A stretch of 64,000 nucleotides of DNA from positions 1-64,000 of the IMG/VR virus record IMGVR_UViG_3300008267_000033. One strand, 5' to 3'. The notes under the pieces are model-generated. The model was not told where the DNA came from. It was given only the letters and a program-made list of their open reading frames with translations, and did not search any database. The DNA comes from a virus. Lineage: Duplodnaviria; Heunggongvirae; Uroviricota; Caudoviricetes. The position numbers and the translations under genes are program-made. Shown here one piece after another: positions 7,458 through 53,313 of the stretch (position 1 is its first letter; every line of letters starts with the position of its first letter).

Positions 7458-8511
7458 CATACTCAATTTCCAAGTCTGTTAGTTCAGGATAGATAGGTAG
7501 ACTCAAACATCTACGTGCTAGGCTGCTGCCAGCACTCAGCAAGTCTGGGCTCTGGTAATGTTGATATGCTGGTAACTCATGCATGGGTGTTGCGTAGTGT
7601 ACCTTGGTTTCAACACCACGCAAGGCAAGATTACGTTGCAAGATATCACGATTGTCCACATGAATCACAAATTTGTGAAAACAGTGCTCATCAAAATTGC
7701 TGCTGTCAATCAAACAAGTGATATTAGGATTTTGTTTCAACATCTCTATCCAGTGCTGAGCAATGGTGCGTCTACGTTGTTGCCACTGGTCAATGTAGCG
7801 AGTTTTTACCAACATCTGCGCACAGTCCGTTTCGCTCATTCTACTGTTGGTGCCAACTTCTGCATGTTTGCTGTGTTTGCCATTGCTGATCCAATCCTGG
7901 GCAAAATCTCTCAAGCCAGCATTGGCAGTGATTACCGCCCCACCATTGCTATAGTTGGCTAGATTCTTTGTGGGATCAAAACTAATAGCACAATCGCCCA
8001 GCCGATTATTGTCATTGCTGAGCCAATGCTGTGCGCCATCTTCAATTATGAGATGAGTAAGCGGCCAAATACTGTTTCTCAATGCGTGAAGGGACTGCCC
8101 ATACAAACCTACACCGCATATGGCTTGAACATCTGTACCGTGTAACAGTTTGTCCATGTCCATCACACCATACCGATCAGTGTCCACAATGTGCAAGTTC
8201 CAGCCTGCTCGCACAAATGCATTCAGTGTAGCAGGATATGTTATTGTGGGCACAGCCACAGTGGGCGGTATAAAACCTGATCGTGATTGATACCATTCAG
8301 CAATGATTTCTAATGCTTGTGTACCCGAGTGACAGGTTATGGCATAAGGTTGGTGATTGCGTCGAGCCAGCCAATCTTCAAACTCATAAGTGTAGTTGCC
8401 GCTCATGAGAGATCCTGAACGCAACACTGTATCTGTTACATCTAAGATCTCGGTGCGAAGATTGTTATACTGTTTTCGGATTCCAGTAAACGGAATTGTC
8501 AAGCCACTCAT
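7429..8511 (-). CDS. DegT/DnrJ/EryC1/StrS-family PLP-dependent sugar aminotransferase
   Basis: N-terminal IPFTGIRKQY...AITCHSGTQALEI and ISFDPTKNLANYSNGGAVITAN, the DegT SFxPxKxL..GxGGxxxTN Lys region. Confidence 0.55.
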   Translation of the reverse strand: MSGLTIPFTGIRKQYNNLRTEILDVTDTVLRSGSLMSGNYTYEFEDWLARRNHQPYAITCHSGTQALEIIAEWYQSRSGFIPPTVAVPTITYPATLNAFVRAGWNLHIVDTDRYGVMDMDKLLHGTDVQAICGVGLYGQSLHALRNSIWPLTHLIIEDGAQHWLSNDNNRLGDCAISFDPTKNLANYSNGGAVITANAGLRDFAQDWISNGKHSKHAEVGTNSRMSETDCAQMLVKTRYIDQWQQRRRTIAQHWIEMLKQNPNITCLIDSSNFDEHCFHKFVIHVDNRDILQRNLALRGVETKVHYATPMHELPAYQHYQSPDLLSAGSSLARRCLSLPIYPELTDLEIEYVIDQLLDCV

Positions 8512-9436
8512 AATACTTCTTAAATCCTTGTTCTACATCCGTCTTGGGATCAAAACTCAAGATGGTTCGGGCACGATCAACATTCAGCGCACCGCGACTG
8601 GGAAAGTCTGCATCCCGGTCCTGTATCTCAATAGTACCCTTGCCCACAATCTTCACAATCATTTCTGCGGCTTCTAACAAACTTACTGAATGTGATTTAG
8701 TAATGTTGAATGTCATGTTGCGGCACATGATACGTGTGGCTGCGGAAACAATGCCATCAGCGGCATCATCCACATAGGTAAAGTCTAAGGTTTCGTTTGC
8801 TCCATTAACTCGGAGCACTCCGCCGCGCATTGCTGTGAGCATGAATTTGGCAACGACTCGGTCTTCAACATCAAGTGGCCCATAAACAGCACTGGGGCGA
8901 ATAATAACATACTCAAAACCACAACGGCGGCTATAATCTTTGACAAGGTCTTCTCCACATAGTTTCATTATTCCATACTGCCCTTGCGGGTGGCATGGAT
9001 CATCTTCCAACACATCATCTTCGAAGTTGCCGTACACCATGCTTGAACTGATGTACACAAACCGTTCAATTTTGTGTTTTTTGGCACTCTCAAGCAAGTT
9101 GATCAACCCCCGCATCATGACATCTGCACCCAGTGCAGGGTTGGCATTGACCACTTTCTGTCGGGGAAAACTGGCACAGTGAATGATAACTTTGGGCTTG
9201 TGCTCACCTATGAGCAAGTCCATGTCTGACTCATCAGTGATGTCGTAAAGGTAGATTGGTGTGTCTGGTGCAATCTTCTTTTCACGTTCTGCCATCAAGT
9301 AATCAATTTCTGCTTGTGGAATGATGCCATAAGTGGTTTTGGTATCCATGATCACAGTTTTCTCACCACGTGCTTGCAGTCGTGCCACTATATTGTGCCC
9401 AATGAGGCCTAGTCCACCTGTAACTAAAAATGTCAT
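8465..9436 (-). CDS. NAD-dependent sugar epimerase/dehydratase (extended SDR)
   Basis: N-terminal Rossmann motif FLVTGGLGLIGHNIV; about 320 aa; YxxxK region present. Confidence 0.65.
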   Translation of the reverse strand: MTFLVTGGLGLIGHNIVARLQARGEKTVIMDTKTTYGIIPQAEIDYLMAEREKKIAPDTPIYLYDITDESDMDLLIGEHKPKVIIHCASFPRQKVVNANPALGADVMMRGLINLLESAKKHKIERFVYISSSMVYGNFEDDVLEDDPCHPQGQYGIMKLCGEDLVKDYSRRCGFEYVIIRPSAVYGPLDVEDRVVAKFMLTAMRGGVLRVNGANETLDFTYVDDAADGIVSAATRIMCRNMTFNITKSHSVSLLEAAEMIVKIVGKGTIEIQDRDADFPSRGALNVDRARTILSFDPKTDVEQGFKKYYEWLDNSVYWNPKTV

Positions 9437-16461: not shown

Positions 16462-17010
16462 CTAGTCTGACGCCGAATGAATTTCTATCAAAGGAATATG
16501 GTCGGGATGCTGTATGACGTAATCAATTATTTTAGCAATACTATCTAGTGCTAACCATTTTTCATGTCCAGGTTTGCCATCATTTAGTCCGCCGGCAATT
16601 ATATGTGAAGTTTTAATTCCTTTTTTGTTGTTCAATTGCAGGCTCCGGTCTCGCAATGCTCGCTTTTGTATACTGTATCCACCATAAATGCTATCTATGC
16701 GACCATCATCAACTCCCATCCACTCAGCAGTGCTTCCGATGTTTATAATATGCCCTTTGATATTGTGCTTGGACCAAACATGCCATGTGGTTTCAAGCAA
16801 TGCTAATTGTCCACCATTGCATATAAAACTGCTGTTGATAAAAACATTGTAGTTTTTAATCTTGTTTTGAAAAAAGTCTTCACTGCCCGAATCCCAAAAT
16901 CTCAAATCGTATCCAGTTGCCCTGCTAGCAAATTCTGCCTGAGGAAATTTTCTTTTGATAGCCGAAGCCACAGTAGTATGATCGGGGTTTCCTGTGCAAA
17001 GTATATTCAT
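16462..17010 (-). CDS. hypothetical protein
   Basis: ORF track. Confidence 0.3.
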   Translation of the reverse strand: MNILCTGNPDHTTVASAIKRKFPQAEFASRATGYDLRFWDSGSEDFFQNKIKNYNVFINSSFICNGGQLALLETTWHVWSKHNIKGHIINIGSTAEWMGVDDGRIDSIYGGYSIQKRALRDRSLQLNNKKGIKTSHIIAGGLNDGKPGHEKWLALDSIAKIIDYVIQHPDHIPLIEIHSASD

Positions 17011-18149
17011 GATATAATTTTACTCCATTCGGGGGTTAACGCCTTGAAATCTGTACCTCGTATGTGATTCAATGCAGATATATTTTTCCAAAAATGATCA
17101 TGGGATTGGTCGCTTGTTTTCAAGGATTGCACCAACAGGAGTAATTGGTTGTAGTTTTGAAATTTGCGTTGTAGCGTGGCATGACCCGACTCTGACAGAT
17201 AATCAAGTTCAAAATCACCAACTGCTTTTTGAAAAATTAAATTAGTTGGGTCGCCATATCTGTTTGAAGAAAAATTTTCATTCCACCAATCCCATACTTC
17301 GTTTAAATAAAAAAAGTTAAGATAACTCCATGTACAATTTATATTGAACATATGGTTGTGTGGCATATTAGCATAGAACCAATCCAAGGTAGAGTTGACT
17401 TTGTTCCAGTCTGCTCCAGTGCGTTGGTAATCAAATCGAGCACCAACATCATCAATGCTGAAATACAGTTCAATCAACTGACATTTCTCCCATAATTGTA
17501 AAATTTCATCCGACACTGTTTGCGTAGCATTGGTATTATAAAATACTCTAACATCTGACAGTCCTTTTACTTGTTGAATTTTTTGCAAAAGTCTAACATG
17601 ATTCTCAGACAACAGTGGTTCGCCACCACCATGAAAATGCACATGCTTGATATTTTCCAAAAGAGCCTGGTCAGTTATTTCTAATTGTTCATTTTTTTTG
17701 TATTGAAACGGTGCAATATCATATGTGGGGTGTAATTTTTGATAATCAGGAATCCATTGTGAACTGTTTTGAGGTCCGCATATGACACATTTCAAATTGC
17801 ATAAATTTCCAACACTGTAGTCAATACCTGTTGGCCCAGACAACTCAATGTTGATGTCTTTATGGTATTCTTCGTATAGTTTTTTTGATCCTTGTCGTCG
17901 GCTTTCTATCCCAGCATCTTCGGCACTGTAGCAGGCCTGGCATCCTGGTATAAAGGCATCAGTTTCAACACATTTTTTTAGCTCTAAGTGTTCGGGGCTA
18001 TTCCACACATCAGTCAAATTGAACTCTGATGATGTTTTGATATATCCATTGTAAAAAGAACAAGGATTGTAACCCAGTTCACCGTTGTGAGACCATATGG
18101 CAAGATTTTTATAAATTTCGTAGCAAAAGTATTTTTTATTTTTCATCAC
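17007..18149 (-). CDS. radical SAM protein
   Basis: CNLKCVIC = CxxxCxxC radical SAM cluster motif; 380 aa. Confidence 0.55.
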   Translation of the reverse strand: MMKNKKYFCYEIYKNLAIWSHNGELGYNPCSFYNGYIKTSSEFNLTDVWNSPEHLELKKCVETDAFIPGCQACYSAEDAGIESRRQGSKKLYEEYHKDINIELSGPTGIDYSVGNLCNLKCVICGPQNSSQWIPDYQKLHPTYDIAPFQYKKNEQLEITDQALLENIKHVHFHGGGEPLLSENHVRLLQKIQQVKGLSDVRVFYNTNATQTVSDEILQLWEKCQLIELYFSIDDVGARFDYQRTGADWNKVNSTLDWFYANMPHNHMFNINCTWSYLNFFYLNEVWDWWNENFSSNRYGDPTNLIFQKAVGDFELDYLSESGHATLQRKFQNYNQLLLLVQSLKTSDQSHDHFWKNISALNHIRGTDFKALTPEWSKIIS

Positions 18150-29012: not shown

Positions 29013-29104
29013 TTGGCGGAAGACGGAGGAGTCGAACCCCATCCCTGTTAAGAGAACCTGGTTTTCAAGGCCAGTCGCAGGACCAACCCCGCTGCATCAT
29101 CTTC
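29013..29104 (-). tRNA. tRNA-Ser (anticodon TGA), type II
   Basis: 92 nt with long variable arm; anticodon stem CTGGC with loop CTTGAAA; T-arm GGGGTTCGACTCC; GCCA end. Confidence 0.65.
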
Positions 29105-29113
29105 CTGTATTTT

Positions 29114-31977: not shown

Positions 31978-32376
31978 TCAAACTTGCTGTATGAATGCAC
32001 TCCAAAGAACAGTGCCATCTTCACTGACAATTGGAACAGCCCAGACGTTCTCAAAATCACATGTGTTGATACTGGCTTGGGTATCAAAGTGAATAAGACT
32101 CCAAAACTTTCGCATGGAAAAATCAGCCTCTAAATTTTGAAATTTGTCAACAAAGGCCTGTGCAGCTTCTTCGCTGATGGAATAATAAATTGATACGTCA
32201 GGCCATGTGTCTGCGTTCACCACGCACAAATTCAATATCAAATTTTCATTTATGCACTCATTCCAGAAATTGACAATAGGATCGAAATGATCAACTACAT
32301 GTTCGCTTCCTTTTGAGCTTATGTTAAGGTCAGACGCCTCTTCCCTAGCAGTCATTATTATTGTAATTTCATACAT
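31978..32376 (-). CDS. hypothetical acidic protein
   Basis: Start set to ATG 32374-32376 (MYEITII...), preceded by AAGGAAA; the upstream part of the track ORF would overlap tRNA-fMet. Confidence 0.35.
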   Translation of the reverse strand: MYEITIIMTAREEASDLNISSKGSEHVVDHFDPIVNFWNECINENLILNLCVVNADTWPDVSIYYSISEEAAQAFVDKFQNLEADFSMRKFWSLIHFDTQASINTCDFENVWAVPIVSEDGTVLWSAFIQQV

Positions 32377-32390
32377 ATATTTCCTTTTAT

Positions 32391-32465
32391 TTGGTTGCAG
32401 AGGACGGATTCGCACCGCCGGTCCCCGGGTTATGAGCCCGATGAGATACTACTTCTCCACTCTGC
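32391..32465 (-). tRNA. initiator tRNA-fMet (anticodon CAT)
   Basis: CGCAGAGTGGAG...TCGGGCTCATAACCCGG...AACCA: C1xA72 mismatch, three G-C pairs closing the anticodon stem, close parallel to E. coli tRNAfMet; T-loop TGCGAAT. Confidence 0.7.
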
Positions 32466-32670
32466 GCTATGTTTATTTATATTGAATGAAGCACTGCCCG
32501 GTGTTTAAAGGTACGTATAGCAATATGCCGATACCATCCTTCCAGGAACATGACTTCGACTGTGACTAGCAGTCCACGCGGCTCTCGCCCGGTCAGCGGC
32601 TCTGGATCAATAAGTCCCTGGCAGTTGGGCCCATTGTCAATGAGTTTTTAACACGCTTCAATCAATATCG
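32466..32670 (-). ncRNA. 205-nt GC-rich non-coding segment between tRNA-His and tRNA-fMet; candidate small structured RNA
   Basis: CCAGG..CCTGG enclosing a GCGGCTCT direct repeat; no ORF. Confidence 0.25.
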
Positions 32671-32747
32671 TGGGGTGCATGATGGGATTCGAACCCACGC
32701 ATATCGGAATCACAATCCGAGGTCTTGACCGCTTGACGACACGCACC
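32671..32747 (-). tRNA. tRNA-His (anticodon GTG)
   Basis: Extra 5' G-1 opposite discriminator C73; anticodon stem TCGGA/TCCGA with loop TTGTGAT; GTGGGTTCGAATCCCAT; CCA. Confidence 0.7.
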
Positions 32748-32826
32748 ATATAGAAACACACTAGTCGGAAACGACTTAGAGACCTACTTGCCCACAGTCA
32801 CGAAGGCTTCTAATGTGTTTTTACAT
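32748..32826. repeat. inter-tRNA spacer bounded by ATATAGAAACACAC (32748-61) and AATGTGTTTTTACAT (32812-26); the spacer contains an AGTCG gaaa CGACT hairpin
   Basis: Abuts the tRNA-His 5' end and the tRNA-Arg(ACG) 3' end. Confidence 0.55.
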
Positions 32827-32902
32827 GGCGCGACCGGAGAGATTCGAACTCCCGACCCCTTGGTTCGTAGCCAAGTACTCTATCCAACTGAGCTACGGTC
32901 GC
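32826..32902 (-). tRNA. tRNA-Arg (anticodon ACG)
   Basis: GCGACCGTAGCTCAGTTGGATAGAGT; anticodon stem CTTGG/CCAAG with loop CTACGAA; GGGAGTTCGAATCTCTC; perfect 7-bp acceptor; CCA. Confidence 0.75.
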
Positions 32903-33518
32903 CGGTTGAATTTGAGAGCCTACGCCGCTTTTATCGTAGATTTATTCAGGACTTACCGGCCGCCTAGCCTGACCTCGAGCACGATGGATATCACTTGGGC
33001 TCCATCCAGCGTGGTCCCCGAGTGGACTACCGCAGTTGCCCGCGGCTGGGTCTCGAACCCACTTGCCTTCTGCTGTTTTGGTCCTTCGAAGAAACCTAGA
33101 CAGCGTGACTTCACTTGCTGACACTCTCAAAACTGGATTTGTTTAGTAGGCTACCCCTCATGTTCTCTTACTCTTGGGTAGCGTGACCATGTCGTATATC
33201 ACCGAAGAACAATCCGCAATATACTAGGCTCCCTCGCTAAAGGCATTACTAAACAAAAACTTGGCGGTCCTAGGGGGTAACGATCCCCACTCTTACGGCG
33301 TGACAAGCCGTCGTGCGTCCATGAACACTTTAGGACCAAAAATCTTGTTGTTACATTAAAAATGCGGCTTGCGCCTCCCACTGCTAACTACTGCTTCCCA
33401 ATTTATCGTCCATCGGCACCCGTGGTAGGGCTTGCGATGCGCATCGGCCTGACGTTCTGGCGTCAGTGATCCTTGGGATAGGACTGCTGGGCCTTGACCT
33501 GCCCAGCATCAGGTTGTT
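32903..33518 (-). ncRNA. about 0.6 kb GC-rich non-coding island inside the tRNA array; candidate structured RNA(s), class unknown
   Basis: No credible ORF; many GC hairpins (TGCTGGGC..GCCCAGCA, CTGACG..CGTCAG, GATGCGCATC) and a T-arm-like GTGGGTTCGAGACCCAG at 33043-62; same strand as the tRNAs. Confidence 0.3.
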
Positions 33519-33604
33519 TGGTGGAGACGGATGGATTCGAACCACCGCGCTTTTTACGGGCCAGATTTACAGTCTGGTGCAATCAACCACTCTGCCACGT
33601 CTCC
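33519..33604 (-). tRNA. tRNA-Tyr (anticodon GTA), type II
   Basis: 86 nt; acceptor GGAGACG/CGTCTCC; anticodon stem CCAGA/TCTGG with loop CTGTAAA; long variable arm; GGTTCGAATCC; CCA. Confidence 0.7.
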
Positions 33605-33614
33605 AAAACGTACT

Positions 33615-33716
33615 ATATAGAAACACACTATACAACAGGTTTAGGTCTGCTTCTGTATCCTGTCACGGCGTAGTATGAAGTTATCTCTAGACCTCAGCCG
33701 TAATGTGTTTTTATAT
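33615..33716. repeat. inter-tRNA spacer bounded by ATATAGAAACACAC (33615-28) and AATGTGTTTTTATAT (33702-16); the spacer contains a GGTCT..AGACC hairpin
   Basis: Abuts the tRNA-Tyr 5' end and the tRNA-Glu 3' end. Confidence 0.55.
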
Positions 33717-33790
33717 GGTACACGATACGAGAATCGAACTCGTCTTTCCGCCTTGAAAGGGCAGCGTCCTAACCGATAGACGAATCGTGC
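33716..33790 (-). tRNA. tRNA-Glu (anticodon TTC)
   Basis: D-arm GTCTATCGGTTAGGAC; anticodon stem CTGCC/GGCGG with loop CTTTCAA; T-arm ACGAGTTCGATTCTCGT; CCA. Confidence 0.6.
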
Positions 33791-33868
33791 ATGCTATACG
33801 AAAACACACTTCGGATACTGTACTAAACAGAAACTATCCAACACGGGCTATCCCGCTGAAGCATGTTT
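33791..33868. repeat. spacer bounded by GCTATACGAAAACACAC (33791-809) and the degenerate GCATGTTTACATATAG (33852-67)
   Basis: Follows the tRNA-Glu 5' end; the partner side is followed by a CCCTGT aactag ACAGGG hairpin instead of a tRNA. Confidence 0.4.
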
Positions 33869-33991
33869 ACATATAGTACCCTGTAACTAGACAGGGACTA
33901 CATGACAATCAAAATTTTAACGAACTTTTCAACTAGTCTCGATCGACTGTGCTGTTTTAAACTGTTTGGTCAACACCATAGAAAAACACAC

Positions 33992-34060
33992 TCTCAGGAA
34001 TCGAACCTGCTACCCTGTAGTACGGGGCTGTATCCAACGGACCATCGCGCATGGTCTGAG
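33992..34060 (-). pseudogene. tRNA-like remnant (T-arm only), flanked by the array's leader/trailer motifs in swapped order
   Basis: GCAGGTTCGATTCCTGA T-arm-like hairpin plus a GACCAT..ATGGTC hairpin; no intact D or anticodon arm; the 14-nt motifs at 33976-33991 and 34061-34074 can pair like an acceptor stem. Confidence 0.25.
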
Positions 34061-34168
34061 TGTGTTTATCTATGTTGTCGCGGAGGCCGAGTCTACAAAC
34101 TCGCTTCGAGTCCCTTGGTTCCAACCCTTTTTGCATCTCTGCGTGGGTTCTTACATTCGAGGACCGCC

Positions 34169-34196
34169 TTGCTTTCTAACTAGTCTCTAGTATAAC
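34169..34196 (+). promoter_or_regulatory. sigma70-like promoter, copy 1 of a 32-bp direct repeat (TTGCTT-16-TATAAC)
   Basis: TTGCTTTCTAACTAGTCTCTAGTATAACATCT at 34169-34200. Confidence 0.4.
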
Positions 34197-34267
34197 ATCT
34201 TGTGTTATTCTGGTCAACTTGTTTTGCAAAATCCCTTTGCTTTGTAGGGTCTTTGCAAACTTTGCTG

Positions 34268-34295
34268 TTGCTTTCTGACTAGTCTCTAATATAAC
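34268..34295 (+). promoter_or_regulatory. sigma70-like promoter, copy 2 of the direct repeat (TTGCTT-16-TATAAC)
   Basis: TTGCTTTCTGACTAGTCTCTAATATAACATCT at 34268-34299, 99 bp after copy 1. Confidence 0.4.
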
Positions 34296-34325
34296 ATCTC
34301 TGCCATTATTGGTCTAGCCGAAAAA

Positions 34326-34353
34326 GAAAAACCCGCCTAGATAGCGGGTTTTT
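34326..34353. terminator. bidirectional rho-independent terminator
   Basis: AAAAACCCGC ctagata GCGGGTTTTTG; ends the minus-strand small gene and the putative plus-strand sRNA. Confidence 0.6.
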
Positions 34354-34780: not shown

Positions 34781-35365
34781 TCAAATCACTTGGGCAATAC
34801 GAGCCAAGATGATTTCAACCACTTGATTGCTGATCACAACTTCATAGTGGTTCAGCGGAAGTTCTACCAATTCAAAATCTGTGCGATATTGTTGGCTTTC
34901 TATTGTGACCACACCGTCATTGGGTTCTTGTATCCAGGGACTGGCTCCGCGTGTGGTCACAACCTGTGTCCAACATGGTGGTGCAGGCAACTTTTTGGCC
35001 GCAGCCATGGGATGACTTGCAGGACCAATGTCTTTCATCAGCCGGTTAAACGGCAGGAAGTAACGTGCATAATCTGCTTGTTTGCTGCCACCATAAGGTG
35101 TGCTCAAGCTCACACCGCCCACAGTGGTCGCACTGTAGTGGTTGGCCAGGTGCAGGGCATAGATACCGCCCAGGCTGTGACTGACGAAGAACAGTCGATC
35201 CTGATCATCCAGTTGGCCCTTCATTTCTGCCAGGTTGTGATCAAATCCTGCTTCGCTGTTGTATTCCAGGGCTAGGTCGGGCTCTTCTGTGTGATCCCGC
35301 ACAAACTGTCTGATGTGTGTGAAACTTTCTGCTGTGGCTGATGCCCCGTGTATGTAAACTATCAT
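34781..35365 (-). CDS. alpha/beta hydrolase (lipase/esterase-like)
   Basis: GxSxG nucleophile elbow VSHSLGG; 194 aa. Confidence 0.5.
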   Translation of the reverse strand: MIVYIHGASATAESFTHIRQFVRDHTEEPDLALEYNSEAGFDHNLAEMKGQLDDQDRLFFVSHSLGGIYALHLANHYSATTVGGVSLSTPYGGSKQADYARYFLPFNRLMKDIGPASHPMAAAKKLPAPPCWTQVVTTRGASPWIQEPNDGVVTIESQQYRTDFELVELPLNHYEVVISNQVVEIILARIAQVI

Positions 35366-35377
35366 TTGAATATTTAT

Positions 35378-35405
35378 TGTAGAGAAACCCGCCGAAGCGG
35401 GTTCT
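35378..35405. other. GC hairpin with GNRA-like loop (CCCGC cgaa GCGGG), possible terminator or attenuator upstream of the hydrolase gene
   Basis: AGAGAAACCCGCCGAAGCGGGTTCTGAGTTTCTGTT. Confidence 0.3.
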
Positions 35406-35701
35406 GAGTTTCTGTTACGAGGTATGTCTTACCCTAGGCAGTGTTTAGGCTGCCAAAGCGAACTGTTCGTCGTTTGCATTTACGGTTTTTGCTTGATTAA
35501 CGGTCATCGCCTACCGTGCTGTCCACTCTGTTACTTGTTGCCCTGTCGAAACTATGCACCCCCATCAAAAGAATTATTGACTAACATTCCCCCCATACTT
35601 CATTTCTGGTGCGGCTAATGCAAAAACTCTTTTGGTGGAGGTGGGGGGATTTGCACCCCCGTCCAGAACACTTTTCTCTCGGCTTCATACAACAATAACT
35701 A

Positions 35702-36316
35702 CTATTTAATCAAATGTGGCCATAAGTTGCCATATTCATCCAATGGTTCAGGTTTAAACCTGATGCTTGCGGCTACTCTCAATTGGGTGTGATGAGTTTC
35801 TGGGCGATGTAAAATATTGACATTGATCCAATGAGGAATATTAGAATCACATCGTCCAATTTCTACTGCTGTACGAGGATCCACAACTCTAGCTATTTCA
35901 ACAATAGAAGTACCAATAACATAGTCTGGTAAACTTTGATCTTTGATCTTGCCATCATACCACACAGTGTAGGTGTCTTCACAGTTGATCAGTGGAATGT
36001 TCAGTGCAATATCCACACCTACATCCACATGCGGAGGAAATTCACGAGTGCTTTCAACAGAGATAAACGTTATTACAAAAAAATTGTTGTATATACCCAG
36101 TCGTTGGAACTCTTGCATCAGAGTAGTACAAGTGTTGTGCATGAGTACTTTGTAGCTGATTTCCACAGCGGTGCTGGTATATGGAACCAGTGTGTCTTTC
36201 TTGGTTTGAATAAACAACTTCAATAATTCTTTTTGTATTGCAGGTAATAATTCTGGATTTAGGCTGGGCTCATGATACAGCCAATCAGGAGTGGTATTTC
36301 GATATTTGTAAACCAT
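35702..36316 (-). CDS. cupin / 2OG-oxygenase-like protein, paralog 2
   Basis: PPHVDVG (HxD) plus ETHH His motif; start set to ATG 36314-36316 (MVYKYRN), 7 nt after the stop of the upstream gene; the long N-terminal extension in the ORF track overlaps that gene. Confidence 0.35.
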   Translation of the reverse strand: MVYKYRNTTPDWLYHEPSLNPELLPAIQKELLKLFIQTKKDTLVPYTSTAVEISYKVLMHNTCTTLMQEFQRLGIYNNFFVITFISVESTREFPPHVDVGVDIALNIPLINCEDTYTVWYDGKIKDQSLPDYVIGTSIVEIARVVDPRTAVEIGRCDSNIPHWINVNILHRPETHHTQLRVAASIRFKPEPLDEYGNLWPHLIK

Positions 36317-37103: not shown

Positions 37104-39158
37104 TTATTTATTGTCAAGCGACACTGTTGGTCTGGTCCAGACATCTGTGTGAACCCACTTGAAATCAAAATCTAATGATTGGCCTTGACCATGATGGTTG
37201 GCAGCTGGATTGTGATCATAAGTTTCGGCTTGTAAACTGATATCAAAATCTGCGTTCCATACCCCATCTGCATTAATTTCAAAATTGTAAACAGCACGGA
37301 ATTCAAATTTTGTTCCTGATGAACAATTATCAGGATATTTTGGATATCGTCTTGTGCCAAATTCTTTGAGATCTCGATCTGGATCAAACTCCACTCTAAA
37401 CCGGTAGGCACCCATGGCCAACCAGAACACCCGCAACAAAGGCCAAATTTCGTTGATCAAACTATTGGCCATGGGATTGATGTTCACTTTGATGATCTCG
37501 TAGTCAAAGTCTTTTTCCCAAGGAATTGAATCTGCCCAATTTGCAGGGTCTGACTCAATCTGATATTGATTTTTTAAGTCAGGTTCTTGACAGTGCGGTT
37601 GATAACGCCTTTTGGTGCCGTGCAATCTAAATTGTTCCAGCAGTATATTGGTAAGTTTGAATCTGACAAATCTGTGAAACACAGTGTTGCGCAGATCCTG
37701 TGTGGCCCATCCGTGAGTCCAGTCAATTCGTCTCACACCAAATCGTTCGCGTTCTAGATCCAAGGGTGTGTTGTGTCCCAGTCCGCAGGTGCCGGCACTT
37801 TGTGCGCCCATGCCTGAGTTACGCAGCCGCCACATCAAGGTTTGTGTTTGTGCCACGTCAGTCAATTCTTCGCCTGGAAATCCTGTGAACCAAGTAGCAA
37901 ACTGATTGCAAAAATCAATCTCAGCCATGTCGTTAAAATTTTGTTCGATCCATTCCACTCGACAATTTTTTTTCATCAAGTCCAGCACATTCTGTGATCC
38001 AGATTCCACACCAAAAGCAAACCCTGTGGCTCCTGATCGTTTTAACAGTGCCCAAAAGTCTCGGTCCATTTTACCATCAATTCGACTGTAGCCACTCCAA
38101 CTGATACATATTTGTCTTTCCATCAGTCCTTCAGCAAACCCTCTCAACTCACGAAGATTTCCATTCAGCAAACTGTCTATGAATGTGACACTTTGTATGT
38201 GTTGATTGCGATAGGCAATTTCAATTTCCTTCAACACACGAGATCCTTGACGGGCACGATATTTCCAAAACACTGTTTCATTGCAATACACACAGTTGGC
38301 AATGCACCCTCGGCTGAATTCGCTGGTTATGCCGTAAGATTCATATAACGAGATATCAAAATCACTGTAGTCAGCTGGGGGCATGCTGTCTAGATCTATA
38401 CGTGCATCTTTGCTTTGAGTTAAAAATTTTGGCAATTCTTCAGTGGGATTTTCTATGTTTTCCAGCACCTGCAACCACAACATTTCACCTTCGCCAGACA
38501 CATAATGATCAATTGCAGGGTTGTCGGCTCGGCTACCGCCAGGGCTAACGCCGCTGTTGTTGTTCATTTGTGTGATATTGGGACCGCCAATGATGATTTT
38601 TAAATCAGGTGATCGGCGTTTGAATTGTTCAATCATCCACATGACACATGCATCGTTGGTGTACCAACAACTGAATCCCAATACTGTGGGCTGCCAAGAC
38701 AAGATTTCATCTAAGTATGGCGTCAACATTGGCTCAAGCATGGGGTGCAATATCTTGCTGTAATGAGGATCTTGCCATTTCCAATCTTCATAACTGCTCC
38801 AATACGGCAGCAACTCCGGGCCTGCTTGTTTTTTACACACAGCATTGATATCCCATGTTTTGGTAGCAAACCCTGCATGCTTGCTCAGTGCTGCCATTCT
38901 AGCAATGCCATATGGTGGCGAAACAGTACTCCATTCGGGCATGACAATCAGTGCCACACGATTTGATCTAATTGTTTCGTAATGTATTACAACTTCAGTG
39001 AGATTTTTTTGTTTGCGACTTTCAGTTGGACTTTTTTGTGCGGCCACAAACATTTCAGAAAGTTTCACATGTGTGTCATTGCCGACCGCGACTGGAGACA
39101 CAGTTGGATACTGTGTTGTTTGAATGGGTATTATTTTTTTTGAATCGATAACTGACAT
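37104..39158 (-). CDS. B12-binding-domain radical SAM (class B) protein
   Basis: N-terminal Rossmann-like B12-binding region followed by FSRGCIANCVYC (CxxxCxxC); 684 aa. Confidence 0.6.
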   Translation of the reverse strand: MSVIDSKKIIPIQTTQYPTVSPVAVGNDTHVKLSEMFVAAQKSPTESRKQKNLTEVVIHYETIRSNRVALIVMPEWSTVSPPYGIARMAALSKHAGFATKTWDINAVCKKQAGPELLPYWSSYEDWKWQDPHYSKILHPMLEPMLTPYLDEILSWQPTVLGFSCWYTNDACVMWMIEQFKRRSPDLKIIIGGPNITQMNNNSGVSPGGSRADNPAIDHYVSGEGEMLWLQVLENIENPTEELPKFLTQSKDARIDLDSMPPADYSDFDISLYESYGITSEFSRGCIANCVYCNETVFWKYRARQGSRVLKEIEIAYRNQHIQSVTFIDSLLNGNLRELRGFAEGLMERQICISWSGYSRIDGKMDRDFWALLKRSGATGFAFGVESGSQNVLDLMKKNCRVEWIEQNFNDMAEIDFCNQFATWFTGFPGEELTDVAQTQTLMWRLRNSGMGAQSAGTCGLGHNTPLDLERERFGVRRIDWTHGWATQDLRNTVFHRFVRFKLTNILLEQFRLHGTKRRYQPHCQEPDLKNQYQIESDPANWADSIPWEKDFDYEIIKVNINPMANSLINEIWPLLRVFWLAMGAYRFRVEFDPDRDLKEFGTRRYPKYPDNCSSGTKFEFRAVYNFEINADGVWNADFDISLQAETYDHNPAANHHGQGQSLDFDFKWVHTDVWTRPTVSLDNK

Positions 39159-50600: not shown

Positions 50601-51307
50601 AATCTTGTTACCTTTGCCATGCCCGACTTGCGGGGATCTTTATTTAGATTGATACTTTCTTCATGCATTTTAACACGGGTTTCTGTTTTTGTCACCCAAC
50701 CTGGTAATACTGCATCCAAATAGGCCAAATGCTCCTCAGGACTAGGATGCGGATCGCCATTTCGATTGGGCCATCCAGTTTTGGCAAACACAGTTTTGTC
50801 ATAGCCCGGCAAGATAGTGTCCAATACATCACTGTACAATCTCATGACATCTCTGTGCAAACTAATATCATCATTGGGCCAAGGACGAGCCATGAGTTCT
50901 ACCATGCTTATGAATCGCCAGGTCAACCCTGTACGAGTTTCTAACAACGTTTTGACTGCCTTGATATATGCAAGGTCTCGTATCAAATACCCTCGCTCGT
51001 CTATGTGTGTTTTGAGATATTCTTTGTTGAATACGTTGGTTGCAAAATGCGCATTGCCTGGAGTGTGCCACCGTCCGTCAACATACCGATCTTCGCGATC
51101 TAAACTTGTCCAACAAACTATCACAGTATCGGCAACACCGAACTGATGACGTTGATCCGCTTCCATTACTGAGTTAAAAATGTAATGATTGCCGCCACCG
51201 GCCTGTCCCCAATTTTCAAAGTGATCAAATTCTGGTGCCAAGCAATCGGCCCAGGTGCTCCAACGATAGTTGGTAAAACTACACCCAAATGTAAACAGCC
51301 TTGACAT
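50597..51307 (-). CDS. SGNH/GDSL-like hydrolase paralog (GCSF variant)
   Basis: LFTFGCSFT, NWGQAGGGN (block II-like), HPSPEEH (block V-like). Confidence 0.35.
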   Translation of the reverse strand: MSRLFTFGCSFTNYRWSTWADCLAPEFDHFENWGQAGGGNHYIFNSVMEADQRHQFGVADTVIVCWTSLDREDRYVDGRWHTPGNAHFATNVFNKEYLKTHIDERGYLIRDLAYIKAVKTLLETRTGLTWRFISMVELMARPWPNDDISLHRDVMRLYSDVLDTILPGYDKTVFAKTGWPNRNGDPHPSPEEHLAYLDAVLPGWVTKTETRVKMHEESINLNKDPRKSGMAKVTRL

Positions 51308-53313
51308 CAGGTCACTAGTTGTTTTTTCTTAATTGAAAAAGCACCTTGTGCTTTGGCAGCACCTGCACCTCGACGTGTGCCCTTGACATTTTCAACACCA
51401 ATGCGATCCACTGTGGCCTTGCCAAAGTTTCTACGTCGGGCAAAATAAAACAGTTCCAAGAAACGGTTCAAACTCATGGTCTTGTCTTCGGGAAAATCCA
51501 GCCTGTATGTTGTGGCAGTTTTTTCCAAGGGCTGATTGAAACTGAGATAATCCCAGATGTTGTAATCTACATCAAGATTCATGGGATATTGATTTCTATC
51601 ATTGTACTTGATGTAGTAATTTCTTTGCAGTTTCATCAAACTGGCCAACAAATCTTCGGGCAAGTTATAACGTTGTAAAAACTTTTCCAGCACGTCATAC
51701 AGTTCATCCACACGGTCTTCCTGGTGCATGTTCATACTTGTTCTGTGAATGATGTTCCAGCCATGTATTTCTACACCAATCTTGGGATGGTTGATTTTGC
51801 CAGTCATCATCCAGTTGGCAAAGTATTGGCGTGTTTCGGCTTCTTCTTTCTTCACCCATTCATTGGTCATAAAATACTCAAACAAATCTTCATAGTAATC
51901 ATTGTAACTGATGCCCATGTACTTGTTGATGAAACGTGCAACTAGTGTAGCAAAGCCATTGATGTGGAATGTGGTTTGAAACCAGGAGAAAATCTGTGCA
52001 TCCAACATAATGGGTGTGGGCATGTCCTTGGTGCCTGTTATGACATCAATACTTTCTTCAATGTGTTCCACACTGTAACTGCCGGCAAAGTAATCTGTCA
52101 CAGGCTGACTGGTGATCTTGAACAGCTTCTTTTGCAACAGGTTCATCTCAGCATTTTCCAACAACTGTGCCTGGAACACAGTGATGCCGGTGTGCTGATT
52201 CAAGTCATACAGGGCATAGAAGTTCTTTTTCCATGTTTCCAATGTCTCACCAGGCAAGCCCAAGATCAGTTCTGTGTAAGCAGGAATGTTGCGTTGATCA
52301 CACAATTCAAACACTTCGTTTAGCTTGTTCATTTCCATGTTCTTGCGACGAATGTTTTCCAGCACGTCATGGTCCAGACTTTGCACACTCAGTGTGAGGC
52401 CTTGATTGAAGCCACGTGCATCCAGCAGTTTCTTCACAATGTCTATGACTTCTTTCTTTTGATTCTTGGCCCAGGCCACACTGAATGTTCTGGGTGAGCC
52501 ATATTTTTCTTGCATTTCAATAATCTTGTCTGCAATCATGCCATCACGTTCGGGGAACATGCCAAAGTTAGCATCAGTGATTGAGATCCAGTCAAAGTTT
52601 CGCTTGGCCATCCATTCCAGTTCTTCAAACACACGTTCAAGTTCAAACTTCTTGACCTTGTTGTAGGTCAGACTGCCCCAGTCACAAAATGTACAAGCAT
52701 AAGGGCAACCACGATTGGTTTCCAATGTGCCTTGCCATGTGACTTCGGGATGCTGAGCTATCATTTGGTCAAAGATACCTGACAAATAAGGACTGGCTAC
52801 TTCTTCCAAACTTTCAATGCGTTCAGCATCTTGTGTTTTTACTGCTTCGCCGTCTCTGTTGATCAATAGACCTGGCACTGTTTCCCAGTCTTGAGTTTCA
52901 AAATGTTCCAACACACGTTTGAAAGTTATCTCACCTTCATAACAAATCACAAGATCTATAAACGGTTCTTTGACAAACAATTCGGGATCAGTTATGGCCA
53001 CTTCTGGTCCACCAAATATGGTCAACACTGAGGGATTGATTTCTTTGATACGTCGAGCCAGGGCGTAGTTGTAACGATGATTCCACACATACGTACTGAA
53101 GGTTACAATTTCGTTCTTGGCCAAGCGTTGTGCCAATGGCTCCACAGCATCTCTACGCCAAATCCAATCTGTAACTTCAAATTGTTCACGTATGCAAGGA
53201 TCTGCCAGGCTGTAACTCCATACCACACCTGCTGAATATGGCAGGTAATATGCGTTGAATTCTTTTGGCCCTTGTTGAAAGTTGGGCTGAACAAAGGCTA
53301 GTTTATATGTCAT
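51307..53313 (-). CDS. B12-binding-domain radical SAM (class B) protein
   Basis: TNRGCPYACTFC (CxxxCxxC) after an N-terminal B12-binding-like Rossmann region; 668 aa. Confidence 0.6.
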   Translation of the reverse strand: MTYKLAFVQPNFQQGPKEFNAYYLPYSAGVVWSYSLADPCIREQFEVTDWIWRRDAVEPLAQRLAKNEIVTFSTYVWNHRYNYALARRIKEINPSVLTIFGGPEVAITDPELFVKEPFIDLVICYEGEITFKRVLEHFETQDWETVPGLLINRDGEAVKTQDAERIESLEEVASPYLSGIFDQMIAQHPEVTWQGTLETNRGCPYACTFCDWGSLTYNKVKKFELERVFEELEWMAKRNFDWISITDANFGMFPERDGMIADKIIEMQEKYGSPRTFSVAWAKNQKKEVIDIVKKLLDARGFNQGLTLSVQSLDHDVLENIRRKNMEMNKLNEVFELCDQRNIPAYTELILGLPGETLETWKKNFYALYDLNQHTGITVFQAQLLENAEMNLLQKKLFKITSQPVTDYFAGSYSVEHIEESIDVITGTKDMPTPIMLDAQIFSWFQTTFHINGFATLVARFINKYMGISYNDYYEDLFEYFMTNEWVKKEEAETRQYFANWMMTGKINHPKIGVEIHGWNIIHRTSMNMHQEDRVDELYDVLEKFLQRYNLPEDLLASLMKLQRNYYIKYNDRNQYPMNLDVDYNIWDYLSFNQPLEKTATTYRLDFPEDKTMSLNRFLELFYFARRRNFGKATVDRIGVENVKGTRRGAGAAKAQGAFSIKKKQLVT

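What the first reader, a model, noticed from the sequence alone, without database searches (positions are those of the whole stretch)
32903..33518. 0.6 kb GC-rich non-coding island inside the tRNA array: candidate structured RNA
The segment between tRNA-Arg(ACG) and tRNA-Tyr has no plausible ORF. It is much more GC-rich than the surrounding sequence. It is full of perfect GC hairpins and contains a T-arm-like element (GTGGGTTCGAGACCCAG). It lies on the tRNA strand, so it would be co-transcribed with the array. tmRNA, RNase P RNA or a group I intron are possibilities, but none could be confirmed by eye. The phrase GGGCTCCAT partly resembles the RNase P CR-I element. A second, smaller segment of this kind lies at 32466-32670.
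Basis: partly seen in the sequence, partly recalled or inferred. Interest (0 to 1): 0.65.

Follow-up and report, generated by a model that had tools for sequence, protein, structure and literature searches.

The report
Two unclassified structured RNAs in phage tRNA array
The 0.6 kb "island" is not one RNA but a missed tRNA-Asp gene, a small inserted hairpin element and two separate, strongly conserved folded RNAs that many freshwater phages carry between their tRNA genes; neither matches any catalogued RNA family, and their function is unknown.

Summary
The window is part of a jumbo-phage-like genome with about 31 tRNA genes and a permuted tmRNA on the minus strand. The flagged segment 32903-33518 is real non-coding sequence on that strand, but it is a mosaic.

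- Element A (33362-33513) is a roughly 150-nt pseudoknotted RNA.
- An atypical but genuine tRNA-Asp(GUC) lies at 33262-33337.
- A roughly 120-nt stem-closed insert lies at 33138-33257.
- Element B' (32907-33133) is a roughly 230-nt RNA whose core has T-arm, hairpin and D-arm modules in the order seen in bacterial YrlA Y RNAs.

Element A occurs in at least 118 distinct copies in lake viromes and in Bordetella phage PHB04. On 35 aligned sequences, 23 of 38 pairs show compensatory changes. B' is found in at least 27 full copies, usually filling exactly the gap between two tRNAs, and 15 of 56 pairs show compensatory changes.

Neither element matches any Rfam 15 family. tmRNA, RNase P RNA and group I intron are excluded, and the real tmRNA is at 35354-35725. 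One-nucleotide indels exclude a peptide gene in A.

The best reading is that both are stable non-coding RNAs made from the tRNA transcript and freed by tRNA processing, with B' acting as a tRNA mimic. This function is inferred, not shown. A self-cleaving ribozyme role is not excluded.

The parts
33362..33513 (-). Element A, a roughly 150-nt conserved pseudoknotted RNA. Helices: P2 33501-33508/33485-33492; P3 33461-33466/33449-33454; P4 33435-33439/33411-33415; P5 33428-33431/33418-33421; P6 33389-33391/33383-33386; P7 33373-33375/33366-33368. A long-range CCCAA/UUGGG pairing joins 33473-33477 and 33397-33401. A pseudoknot joins the P5 loop (33422-33425) to 33378-33381.
   Evidence: The covariance model R1 finds a single hit in the window at 187.7 bits. 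On 35 distinct homologues, 99.1% of cells are paired, 23 of 38 pairs have compensatory changes, and 0 of 500 shuffles reach the observed values. There is no Rfam hit.
33338..33361 (-). Spacer after Element A. It starts with GCAUUUUU directly after the P7 hairpin, giving a weak terminator-like tail in this lineage.
   Evidence: Read from the sequence. The same U-run appears in L008, L021 and L005. The consensus scan did not call it a terminator.
33262..33337 (-). tRNA-Asp(GUC) with an encoded GCCA 3' end and an unusual T-loop, AUCGUUA (A54/U58 in place of U54/A58).
   Evidence: ARAGORN calls it. The Rfam tRNA model does not reach E<=1. Eleven distinct homologues keep the GTC anticodon and show compensatory changes in the acceptor and anticodon stems. 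One homologue (L150) has the canonical UUCGAUA loop, which is a coordinated swap of positions 54 and 58. It is the only tRNA-Asp in the array.
33138..33257 (-). A roughly 120-nt insert between tRNA-Asp and Element B'. It is closed by an 11-bp stem (UUGUUUAGUAG/CUACUAAACAA) and flanked by CCAAGUUUU / UCCAGUUUU.
   Evidence: Fold: -37.8 kcal/mol, z = -2.6. In relatives L068, L086 and L066, B' follows tRNA-Asp directly with 0 nt between them. L021 carries a different insert at this place. No homologue of this insert was found in the fetched loci.
32907..33133 (-). Element B', a roughly 230-nt conserved RNA. Closing helix P1 is 33123-33131/32911-32919. A long hairpin ('V') spans 33072-33104. The T-arm-like hairpin is 33047-33061, a further hairpin ('AS') is 33032-33043, and the D-arm-like hairpin is 33014-33027. 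An invariant 3' half spans 32920-32994.
   Evidence: The nhmmer profile gives one hit in the window, 33136-32903, E = 4e-77. On 19 homologues, 98.6% of cells are paired, 15 of 56 pairs have compensatory changes, and 0 of 500 shuffles reach the observed score. The sub-threshold YrlA alignment covers 33014-33062 (17.6 bits against a gathering score of 69).
32826..32902 (-). tRNA-Arg(ACG). Its 5' end abuts the 3' end of B'.
33519..33604 (-). tRNA-Tyr(GUA). Its CCA end lies 5 nt upstream of Element A.
32467..32670 (-). The 'second, smaller segment' named in the finding. This 204-nt spacer lies between tRNA-His and tRNA-Met and is predicted to be closed by a long-range stem.
   Evidence: Fold: -59.7 kcal/mol, z = -2.1. 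No Rfam hit. No homologue among the loci. It remains unclassified.
34189..34217 (-). Sigma-70-like promoter (TTGACC-17-TATACT with an extended TG) that could drive the Glu-Tyr-A-Asp-B'-Arg-His-Met sub-array.
   Evidence: Consensus scan only. A terminator-like hairpin lies just upstream at 34327-34353 on the same strand.

Best explanation
The interval is a mosaic of four minus-strand features inside a phage tRNA array. In order they are Element A, an atypical tRNA-Asp, a stem-closed insert, and Element B'.

A and B' are two unrelated, independently distributed families of structured non-coding RNA. Both appear restricted to phages, mostly from freshwater viromes.

Proposed mechanism (inferred): both are transcribed as part of the polycistronic tRNA precursor. 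They are released as discrete, stable small RNAs by the enzymes that mature the neighbouring tRNAs. RNase P cutting at the 5' end of the downstream tRNA would define their 3' side. Endonucleolytic cutting in the A/U-rich stretch right after the upstream CCA would define their 5' side.

B' pairs its two ends in helix P1 and presents a T-loop/D-loop module arranged as in YrlA Y RNAs. It most likely acts as a tRNA mimic that engages a tRNA-binding host or phage protein. Element A has two long-range pairings and about 70 invariant positions. It most likely works as a protein-bound or catalytic RNA whose partner is unknown.

Shown here: existence, boundaries, conservation, secondary structure, absence from Rfam, and phage restriction. 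Inferred: transcription, processing, stability and function.
For: Mosaic:
- tRNA-Asp is called by ARAGORN and supported by compensatory changes in 11 homologues.
- The insert is absent from relatives in which B' abuts tRNA-Asp directly.

Element A:
- It is found in 26 and then 54 IMG/VR contigs by two invariant strings, in 119 metagenome contigs, and in the cultured Bordetella phage PHB04.
- These give 118-125 distinct copies.
- Covariation: 23 of 38 pairs, 99.1% of cells paired, slid controls 21-42% paired.
- G-U pairs are kept on this strand only, for example pair 93-106 (GU in 33 sequences) and pair 96-103 (UG in 15), so selection acts on RNA of this polarity.

Element B':
- It is found in 30 IMG/VR contigs.
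- Covariation is seen in P1, V, T, AS and D.
- Of 27 full copies, 15 start 0 nt after a tRNA CCA and about 20 end within -2 to +6 nt of the next tRNA.

Independence: B'-bearing loci lack A, apart from three contigs that carry both.

Phage restriction: two gapped patterns for A found only two chance matches in 185,579 species-representative genomes.

The tRNA-like core aligns to the T-AS-D part of the YrlA model. Chen et al. 2014 describe that architecture (PMC4201824).

Transcription context: a promoter-like site lies at 34217-34189, and no strong terminator lies between it and 32392.

Precedent: T4 encodes the stable RNAs rnaC and rnaD within its tRNA cluster. GOLLD sits in the array of the close relative L021.
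Against: - There is no expression or processing data. Transcription and release are inferred from position only.
- Most copies of Element A (about 95 of 125) are not next to a tRNA. They lie 2-8 nt after stop codons and are often followed by a promoter-like site: 41 of 111 copies against 71 of 545 control windows. This fits a 3'-end or cis role at least as well as a trans-acting one.
- B' fails the Rfam YrlA threshold. It lacks the GNCGAAN0-1G Ro-binding motif when read by eye against the motif quoted. No Ro/TROVE protein was found among the window ORFs scanned.
- The invariant 3' half of B', and several helices of A, carry no covariation. They are therefore neither supported nor refuted.
Confidence: 0.55

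Rival explanations
1. One or both elements are self-cleaving ribozymes that cut at or near their own 5' edge. They would free the 3' end of the upstream tRNA or mRNA in cis, as proposed for the HDV-like theta ribozymes of gut phages.
For: - B' begins exactly at the nucleotide after CCA in 15 of 27 copies.
- A begins 5-9 nt after CCA or 2-8 nt after stop codons.
- Both have pseudoknot-type or long-range pairings and many invariant unpaired nucleotides.
- Theta ribozymes are documented with their cleavage site within 5 nt of phage tRNA 3' ends (PMC10879173).
Against: - No hit to any Rfam ribozyme family (HDV-like, hatchet, twister, pistol, hammerhead, glmS) at E<=10.
- Neither element can be drawn as the nested double pseudoknot of HDV. 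In B' the first 3 nt are unpaired and are followed by a terminal helix that pairs with the 3' end.
- They are two to four times larger than theta ribozymes.
- The tRNAs here encode CCA, and the array is so compact that any spacer element would abut tRNAs anyway.
Confidence: 0.15
2. Element A is a cis-acting 3'-end module. It would act as a transcript-end, processing or exonuclease-blocking structure that marks the end of a transcription unit, rather than as a trans-acting RNA.
For: - A sits directly after stop codons in most copies.
- It is followed within 170 nt by a sigma-70-like promoter in 37% of copies against 13% of control windows, with the -35 hexamer starting a median of 48 nt downstream of A's conserved AGUG motif, which lies about 16 nt before the end of the element.
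- In the jumbo-phage lineage its last hairpin is followed by a U-run.
Against: - A simple hairpin would serve these purposes. A has 8 or 9 helices and about 70 invariant positions across phages whose tRNAs are only 75-88% identical.
- Inside tRNA arrays it is followed within about 25 nt by another tRNA with no promoter in between.
- The consensus scan did not call its 3' hairpin a terminator.
Confidence: 0.15
3. The elements are selfish mobile DNA (MITE-like cassettes, or passengers of homing endonucleases) that insert next to tRNA 3' ends. Their conservation would reflect recent spread rather than function.
For: - B' follows at least 8 different tRNA species with the same CCA|AGUUUUG junction.
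- Distribution among related arrays is patchy.
- B' is up to 100% identical over 130 nt where the flanks are 81-88% identical.
- An HNH endonuclease gene lies directly after A in L041, with GIY-YIG-like genes (motifs read by eye, not scanned) nearby.
- The 120-nt insert in this window does have terminal inverted repeats and a duplicated flank.
Against: - Compensatory changes that keep G-U pairs on one strand only show selection on an RNA fold.
- A and B' themselves have no terminal inverted repeats or target duplications.
- Homing endonuclease genes typically settle beside conserved sequence, so their presence is equally explained by A being conserved (established knowledge).
Confidence: 0.1
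4. One reading: the island is a tmRNA, an RNase P RNA, a group I intron, or a small-protein gene.
For: Only superficial evidence: a T-arm-like hairpin and GC-rich hairpins.
Against: - No Rfam hits.
- The tmRNA is at 35354-35725.
- The CR-I-like string is on the wrong strand.
- No interrupted gene flanks the segment.
- One-nucleotide indels break the only frame in A.
Confidence: 0.02

Closest known systems
YrlA / bacterial Y RNA (Rfam RF02553; Chen et al. 2014, PMC4201824)
   Same: The core of B' has a T-arm with a UUCRANY loop, then a short hairpin, then a D-arm-like hairpin with GG in its loop. This is the T-AS-D order of YrlA. An extra arm lies upstream of T (YrlA's 'V'), and the whole is enclosed by helices formed from distal sequence.
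   Different: The score is 17.6 bits against a gathering score of 69. No GNCGAAN0-1G Ro-binding motif is seen. No rsr (Ro60) gene is found in the 64-kb window. B' is about twice as long and has an invariant 100-nt 3' domain with no counterpart in YrlA. It is located between tRNA genes rather than next to rsr.
GOLLD (RF02032) and ROOL ornate RNAs
   Same: These are elaborate RNAs of unknown function found in lake metagenomes and phages, typically beside or around tRNA genes. The close relative L021 carries a GOLLD RNA (164.6 bits) in the same array that holds A and B'.
   Different: There is no sequence or model similarity. A and B' are 150 and 230 nt, against roughly 600-800 nt. The window itself has no GOLLD or ROOL hit.
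Phage T4 stable RNAs rnaC and rnaD (species 1 and 2 RNAs)
   Same: They are small stable RNAs of unknown function encoded inside the phage tRNA cluster on the tRNA strand. rnaC also ends in a T-arm-like hairpin.
   Different: The Element A model finds nothing at their coordinates. Sizes, sequences and host lineage all differ.
Theta (minimal HDV-like) ribozymes next to phage tRNAs (PMC10879173)
   Same: They are structured RNA placed directly at the 3' end of phage tRNA genes.
   Different: Theta ribozymes are about 55-60 nt with the HDV double-pseudoknot fold. They occur in gut phages of Bacteroidota and Bacillota and are mostly next to tRNAs without encoded CCA. A and B' do not fit that fold, and the tRNAs here encode CCA.

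Membership tests
YrlA (Y RNA-like), for Element B' | Reaches the Rfam RF02553 gathering score | tested here: not met
   17.6 bits against 69; E = 0.42 when searched alone. Only model positions 31-81 of 114 align.
YrlA (Y RNA-like), for Element B' | tRNA-like module with T, AS and D stem-loops in that order | tested here: met
   The alignment to the model shows the T hairpin, the AS hairpin, and UAG plus a D-like hairpin. Each of the three helices has compensatory changes in homologues.
YrlA (Y RNA-like), for Element B' | Ro60-binding stem with the GNCGAAN0-1G motif (PMC4201824) | tested here: not met
   The only CGAA in B' is UUCGAAGG at the tip of the V hairpin, and it lacks the leading G.
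YrlA (Y RNA-like), for Element B' | Encoded next to an rsr (Ro60/TROVE) gene | tested here: inconclusive
   None of 30 window ORFs scanned (20 of them the largest, plus 10 around the array) has a TROVE domain. The window is only part of a genome that is probably larger than 200 kb.
tmRNA | tRNA-like domain plus tag reading frame, detected by ARAGORN or Rfam | tested here: not met
   The only tmRNA is at 35354-35725. Within the finding there is only a 15.9-bit chance match.
Bacterial RNase P RNA | Rfam RNaseP_bact_a/b match with CR-I and CR-V forming P4 | tested here: not met
   No hit at E<=10. GGGCTCCAT is on the plus strand.
Group I / group II intron | Rfam intron model match and an interrupted host gene | tested here: not met
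   No hit. The flanking tRNAs are complete.
GOLLD / ROOL | Rfam model match | tested here: not met
   No hit in the window at the gathering score or at E<=1. GOLLD is present only in relative L021. There is no local similarity to A or B'.
Self-cleaving ribozymes (HDV-like/theta, hatchet, twister, pistol, hammerhead) | Family fold and demonstrated self-scission | tested here: inconclusive
   No Rfam hit, and the HDV fold cannot be drawn. Catalysis cannot be tested with these tools.
tRNA (for 33262-33337) | Cloverleaf with anticodon, conserved across homologues | tested here: met
   ARAGORN calls tRNA-Asp(gtc). Eleven homologues show compensatory changes in the stems, an invariant GTC anticodon and a coordinated 54/58 swap. 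The Rfam tRNA model does not reach E<=1, probably because of the T-loop.

The most novel reading that the evidence does not exclude
Element A is a new class of functional RNA that phages deploy both inside tRNA arrays and at the ends of operons. It could be a new self-cleaving or otherwise catalytic RNA, or the RNA subunit of a phage-host ribonucleoprotein. Element B' would be a phage Y-RNA-like tRNA mimic that works without a linked Ro protein. Together with GOLLD in sister phages, this would make phage tRNA arrays a general depot of ornate effector RNAs.
Probability: 0.25. Interest if true: 0.85.

Novelty: new variant of a known kind. Interest (0 to 1): 0.6.

Why it matters
Phage tRNA clusters have long been known to carry extra stable RNAs of unknown purpose, such as T4 species 1 and 2 RNAs, GOLLD and ROOL. 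This locus adds two more families with unusually clear comparative support.

One of them, Element A, is present in a cultured phage with a cultivable host: Bordetella phage PHB04 on B. bronchiseptica. That makes its function directly testable. If A is catalytic or B' is a Ro-independent tRNA mimic, either would be a new RNA mechanism in phage-host conflict.

The practical yield is more modest. The work corrects the annotation with a missed tRNA-Asp and a missed tRNA-Ser(UGA), and it provides two alignments suitable for building new RNA family models.

Tried and rejected
- **Rfam.** I searched at the gathering score on the whole window. I also searched at E<=10 on 32300-34300 and on each piece alone, and at E<=1 on the whole array. 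Only tRNAs, the tmRNA and chance matches came up.
- **GenBank phages.** A search with the 2-kb region matched only tRNA-Tyr genes, plus a 115-nt match to PHB04 that led to Element A.
- **Bacterial and archaeal genomes.** Two gapped patterns gave 0 and 2 hits, and both hits were chance.
- **Peptide gene in A.** Rejected because of 1-nt indels and compensatory changes.
- **Group I intron reading of B'.** Considered because of loose resemblance to R/S-like strings. Rejected because there is no P7/P3 geometry, no exons and no Rfam hit.
- **RNase P reading.** Rejected because the GUAAGUCC in B' is at the wrong place and has no partner strand.
- **HDV-like fold for B' and for its 52-nt mini-form in L015.** It cannot be drawn.
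- **Link between A and the 75-aa protein upstream of it in many contigs.** The protein has no Pfam family and only a weak hit to a PHROG of unknown function. It is not encoded in this window.
- **Similarity of A or B' to the GOLLD of L021, and of A to T4 rnaC/rnaD.** None found. B' was not searched against the T4 region.
- **Catalogue of Fremin et al. 2023 (10,006 viral RNA candidates).** It could contain these motifs, but its supplements are not held, so this could not be checked.
- **Covariance model for B'.** Not built. A sequence profile (nhmmer) was used instead.

Full report
**Context.** ARAGORN finds 30 tRNA genes and one permuted (two-piece) tmRNA, all on the minus strand, between 26758 and 37080. 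Rfam confirms 29 of the tRNAs and the tmRNA. Window ORFs include radical-SAM/B12 proteins, sugar-modifying enzymes, a MoxR-type ATPase, DUF2201 and a 5'-3' exonuclease. The closest relatives are uncultivated viral contigs from lake metagenomes, some of them 215-364 kb long. The window is therefore part of a large, probably jumbo, freshwater phage. Its beta-type tmRNA suggests a betaproteobacterial host; that is an inference.

**Checking the observation.** The interval 32903-33518 lies between tRNA-Arg(ACG) and tRNA-Tyr. It holds only short overlapping ORFs.
- GC content is 52.3%, against 44.5% for the window. That equals the mean of the tRNA genes (52.7%), so the GC contrast is real but modest.
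- The T-arm-like string is at 33046-33062 on the minus strand. The supposed RNase P CR-I string is on the plus strand.
- The interval is not one unit. ARAGORN calls tRNA-Asp(GTC) at 33262-33337.
- The Rfam tRNA model misses this tRNA-Asp even at E<=1, but it is a real gene. It is the only tRNA-Asp of the set and it encodes GCCA.
- Eleven distinct homologues keep the GTC anticodon while changing both sides of acceptor-stem and anticodon-stem pairs.
- Its odd T-loop AUCGUUA (A54, U58) is replaced in one homologue by the canonical UUCGAUA, a coordinated swap of the two positions that pair in the T-loop.

**Element A (33362-33513, minus strand).** A 115-nt stretch matched an unannotated region of Bordetella phage PHB04, downstream of that phage's tRNAs and tmRNA.
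- Distribution:
  - Two invariant strings retrieved 26 and 54 IMG/VR contigs.
  - A gapped pattern retrieved 119 metagenome contigs, almost all from lakes.
  - Together these give 118-125 distinct copies.
- Structure:
  - An alignment of 35 distinct sequences supports five hairpins (P2-P7; P5 is stacked within P4).
  - It also supports a long-range CCCAA/UUGGG pairing and a pseudoknot between the P5 loop (CCAC) and a 3' GUGG. PHB04 changes both sides of one pseudoknot pair (GCAC/GUGC).
  - 99.1% of cells are paired and 23 of 38 pairs have compensatory changes.
  - No shuffle out of 500 reaches the observed values, and slid registers give 21-42% pairing.
- Polarity: G-U pairs are maintained on this strand only, so the selected molecule is an RNA of tRNA polarity.
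- Conservation and coding: about 70 positions are invariant. Element length varies by single nucleotides (134, 135 or 136 nt), which rules out a conserved reading frame.
- Database status:
  - Rfam 15 has no match, even when the 181 nt are searched alone at E<=10.
  - A covariance model built here (R1) finds one copy in the window at 187.7 bits.
  - Two patterns found only two chance matches in 185,579 species-representative bacterial and archaeal genomes.

**Genomic context of Element A.**
- Of 125 distinct copies, 28 start within 15 nt of a tRNA 3' end, as here (5 nt after the CCA of tRNA-Tyr).
- Another 26 start 2-8 nt after the stop codon of a roughly 75-aa protein ending in VVYRLGHSHQSY. 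That protein has no Pfam family and only a weak hit to a PHROG of unknown function.
- Most of the rest follow other stop codons.
- Of the 111 copies with enough downstream sequence, 41 are followed within 170 nt by a TTGAYN-N16-18-TAYAMT site, against 71 of 545 control windows.
- In L041 an HNH/NUMOD4 endonuclease gene follows directly.

Element A is thus not specific to tRNA arrays. It sits at the 3' boundary of whatever precedes it.

**Element B' (32907-33133, minus strand).** The 3' 230 nt of the remaining piece are 81-100% identical to relative L021, while the 5' 120 nt are unrelated.
- Distribution: an invariant string retrieved 30 IMG/VR contigs. A sequence profile finds one copy in the window (E = 4e-77) and 27 full copies overall. 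Shorter variants occur in L004, L016 and L190, and L015 has a 52-nt mini-form with only the terminal helix and the 3' hairpin.
- Junctions: 15 of 27 full copies begin at the nucleotide after a tRNA CCA (CCA|AGUUUUG), following at least eight different tRNA species. About 20 end within -2 to +6 nt of the next tRNA.
- Structure:
  - The consensus structure has a 9-bp terminal helix pairing the two ends and a long hairpin.
  - It then has a T-arm-like hairpin (GGG-UUCRANY-CCC), a short hairpin, and a D-arm-like hairpin with GG in its loop.
  - An invariant 3' domain follows.
  - 98.6% of cells are paired and 15 of 56 pairs have compensatory changes, all of them in the terminal helix and the first five hairpins.
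  - No shuffle out of 500 reaches the observed score.
- Comparison with Rfam: the only hit is a sub-threshold alignment to the T-AS-D part of YrlA (17.6 bits against 69). That architecture is the one described for bacterial Y RNAs (PMC4201824).
- Points against calling B' a Y RNA: it lacks the Ro-binding motif, is twice as long, and no TROVE protein is encoded by the window ORFs tested. I treat it as working like a tRNA mimic of the YrlA type, not as a member of that family.

**The insert (33138-33257).** In L068, L086 and L066, B' follows tRNA-Asp with no spacer. In this window the two are separated by about 120 nt. The insert is closed by an 11-bp stem and flanked by CCAAGUUUU / UCCAGUUUU, which looks like an insertion into the junction. 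L021 carries a different insert at the same place. I found no other copy.

**A and B' are independent.** Loci retrieved through B' do not contain A, and the reverse holds too. The exceptions are L015, L021 and the contig behind L024/L079, which hold both.

**Mechanism.** These steps are inferred.
- A promoter-like site at 34217-34189 follows a terminator-like hairpin at 34353-34327. No strong terminator lies before tRNA-Met at 32392.
- A and B' would therefore be made as part of one precursor: Glu-Tyr-A-Asp-insert-B'-Arg-His-(204 nt)-Met.
- RNase P cleavage at the downstream tRNA, and endonucleolytic cleavage in the A/U-rich sequence after the upstream CCA, would release them.
- B' would then be protected by its terminal helix.

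This is what is known for T4 rnaC and rnaD, which are annotated as stable RNAs in the T4 tRNA cluster but are unrelated to A.

The many invariant unpaired nucleotides suggest a specific macromolecular partner or catalysis. The tRNA-like core of B' suggests recognition by a tRNA-binding protein.

**Rivals.**
1. **Self-cleaving ribozymes.** They would release the upstream 3' end, as proposed for theta ribozymes (PMC10879173). Position favours this. The lack of any ribozyme-family match and of an HDV-type fold counts against it. Only an assay can decide.
2. **A cis-acting 3'-end module, for Element A.** Its placement after stop codons and before promoters favours this. Its complexity and its presence between tRNAs count against it.
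3. **Selfish mobile DNA.** This reading is consistent with the patchy distribution and the neighbouring endonuclease genes. It does not explain strand-specific RNA covariation.
These are refuted.

**Comparison with known systems and novelty.** The closest known relatives in kind are YrlA (for the core of B'), GOLLD/ROOL, T4 rnaC/rnaD and theta ribozymes.
- The sister phage L021 carries a bona fide GOLLD RNA, with a nested tRNA, in the same array as A and B' (164.6 bits). This shows that these arrays collect ornate RNAs.
- Neither A nor B' is in Rfam 15.
- I could not check the unnamed candidates of Fremin et al. 2023, so prior listing as an anonymous motif is possible.
- I rate the finding as a new variant of a known kind: structured RNAs of unknown function embedded in phage tRNA clusters.
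- I give roughly a one-in-four chance that Element A represents a genuinely new functional class.

**Verdict.** Interest is moderate to high, because the comparative evidence is strong and Element A is experimentally reachable in a cultured phage (PHB04). Function remains inferred.

Noticed in passing
window 29018-29105 (-): This looks like a tRNA-Ser(UGA) gene with a long variable arm that ARAGORN and the Rfam tRNA model both missed. It scores 36.6 bits on the tRNA-Sec model, below threshold. It reads GGAAGAUG...CUUGAAA...GGGGUUCGACUCCUC...GUCUUCCGCCA, is 83-86% conserved in four other arrays, and would complete the tRNA set.
   Followed up: partly
window 35354-35725 (-): Permuted (two-piece) beta-type tmRNA with tag ANDEQFALAA. 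The scores are 142.7 bits for tmRNA_permuted and 138.6 bits for beta_tmRNA. Homologous tmRNAs are present in PHB04, L023 and L068.
   Followed up: partly
window 32747-32825, 33605-33715, 33975-34078 (-): The spacers between tRNAs are closed by long stems with shared ends (AUA(G)AAACACA... / ...UGUGUUUCUAUAU). The one at 33975-34078 is very stable (z = -5.9) and encloses a T-arm-like hairpin (CAGGUUCGAUUCCUG). The same element precedes Element A in L194. They may be RNase III-type processing stems or a third RNA family.
   Followed up: partly
window 34061-34189 (-): A 129-nt stretch just downstream of a promoter-like site is 98% identical to L018, while neighbouring sequence is about 85% identical. 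It could be a leader or a recently exchanged segment.
   Followed up: no
L021 1-452 (-), contig IMGVR_UViG_3300042522_000150: A close relative carries a GOLLD RNA (RF02032, 164.6 bits, cut by the contig end) with a nested tRNA. It lies in the same array as Elements A and B'. The window has no GOLLD hit.
   Followed up: partly
L041 2833-3060 and about 25 other loci (for example L029, L007, L014, L031): A roughly 75-aa protein family (...ITVADMMAALSALPPDA...VVYRLGHSHQSY) ends 2-8 nt before Element A in many small phage contigs. It has no Pfam family and only a weak hit to a PHROG of unknown function. It is encoded 2-9 kb away from A in L004, L010 and L017, and is absent from this window.
   Followed up: partly
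L001 (Bordetella phage PHB04, MF663786) about 3150-3850 of the locus: About 700 nt of GC-rich sequence lies between the tmRNA and Element A, carrying only a 37-aa annotated ORF. It has no significant Rfam match (only a 21.7-bit tRNA-Sec match at E = 0.91). It may hold further RNAs.
   Followed up: no
window 37104-39158 (-) and 51307-53313 (-): Two large B12-binding radical-SAM proteins lie in this phage window. A third radical-SAM protein is at 17007-18149, and an aminotransferase/epimerase cluster is at 7429-9436. All are auxiliary metabolic genes.
   Followed up: no
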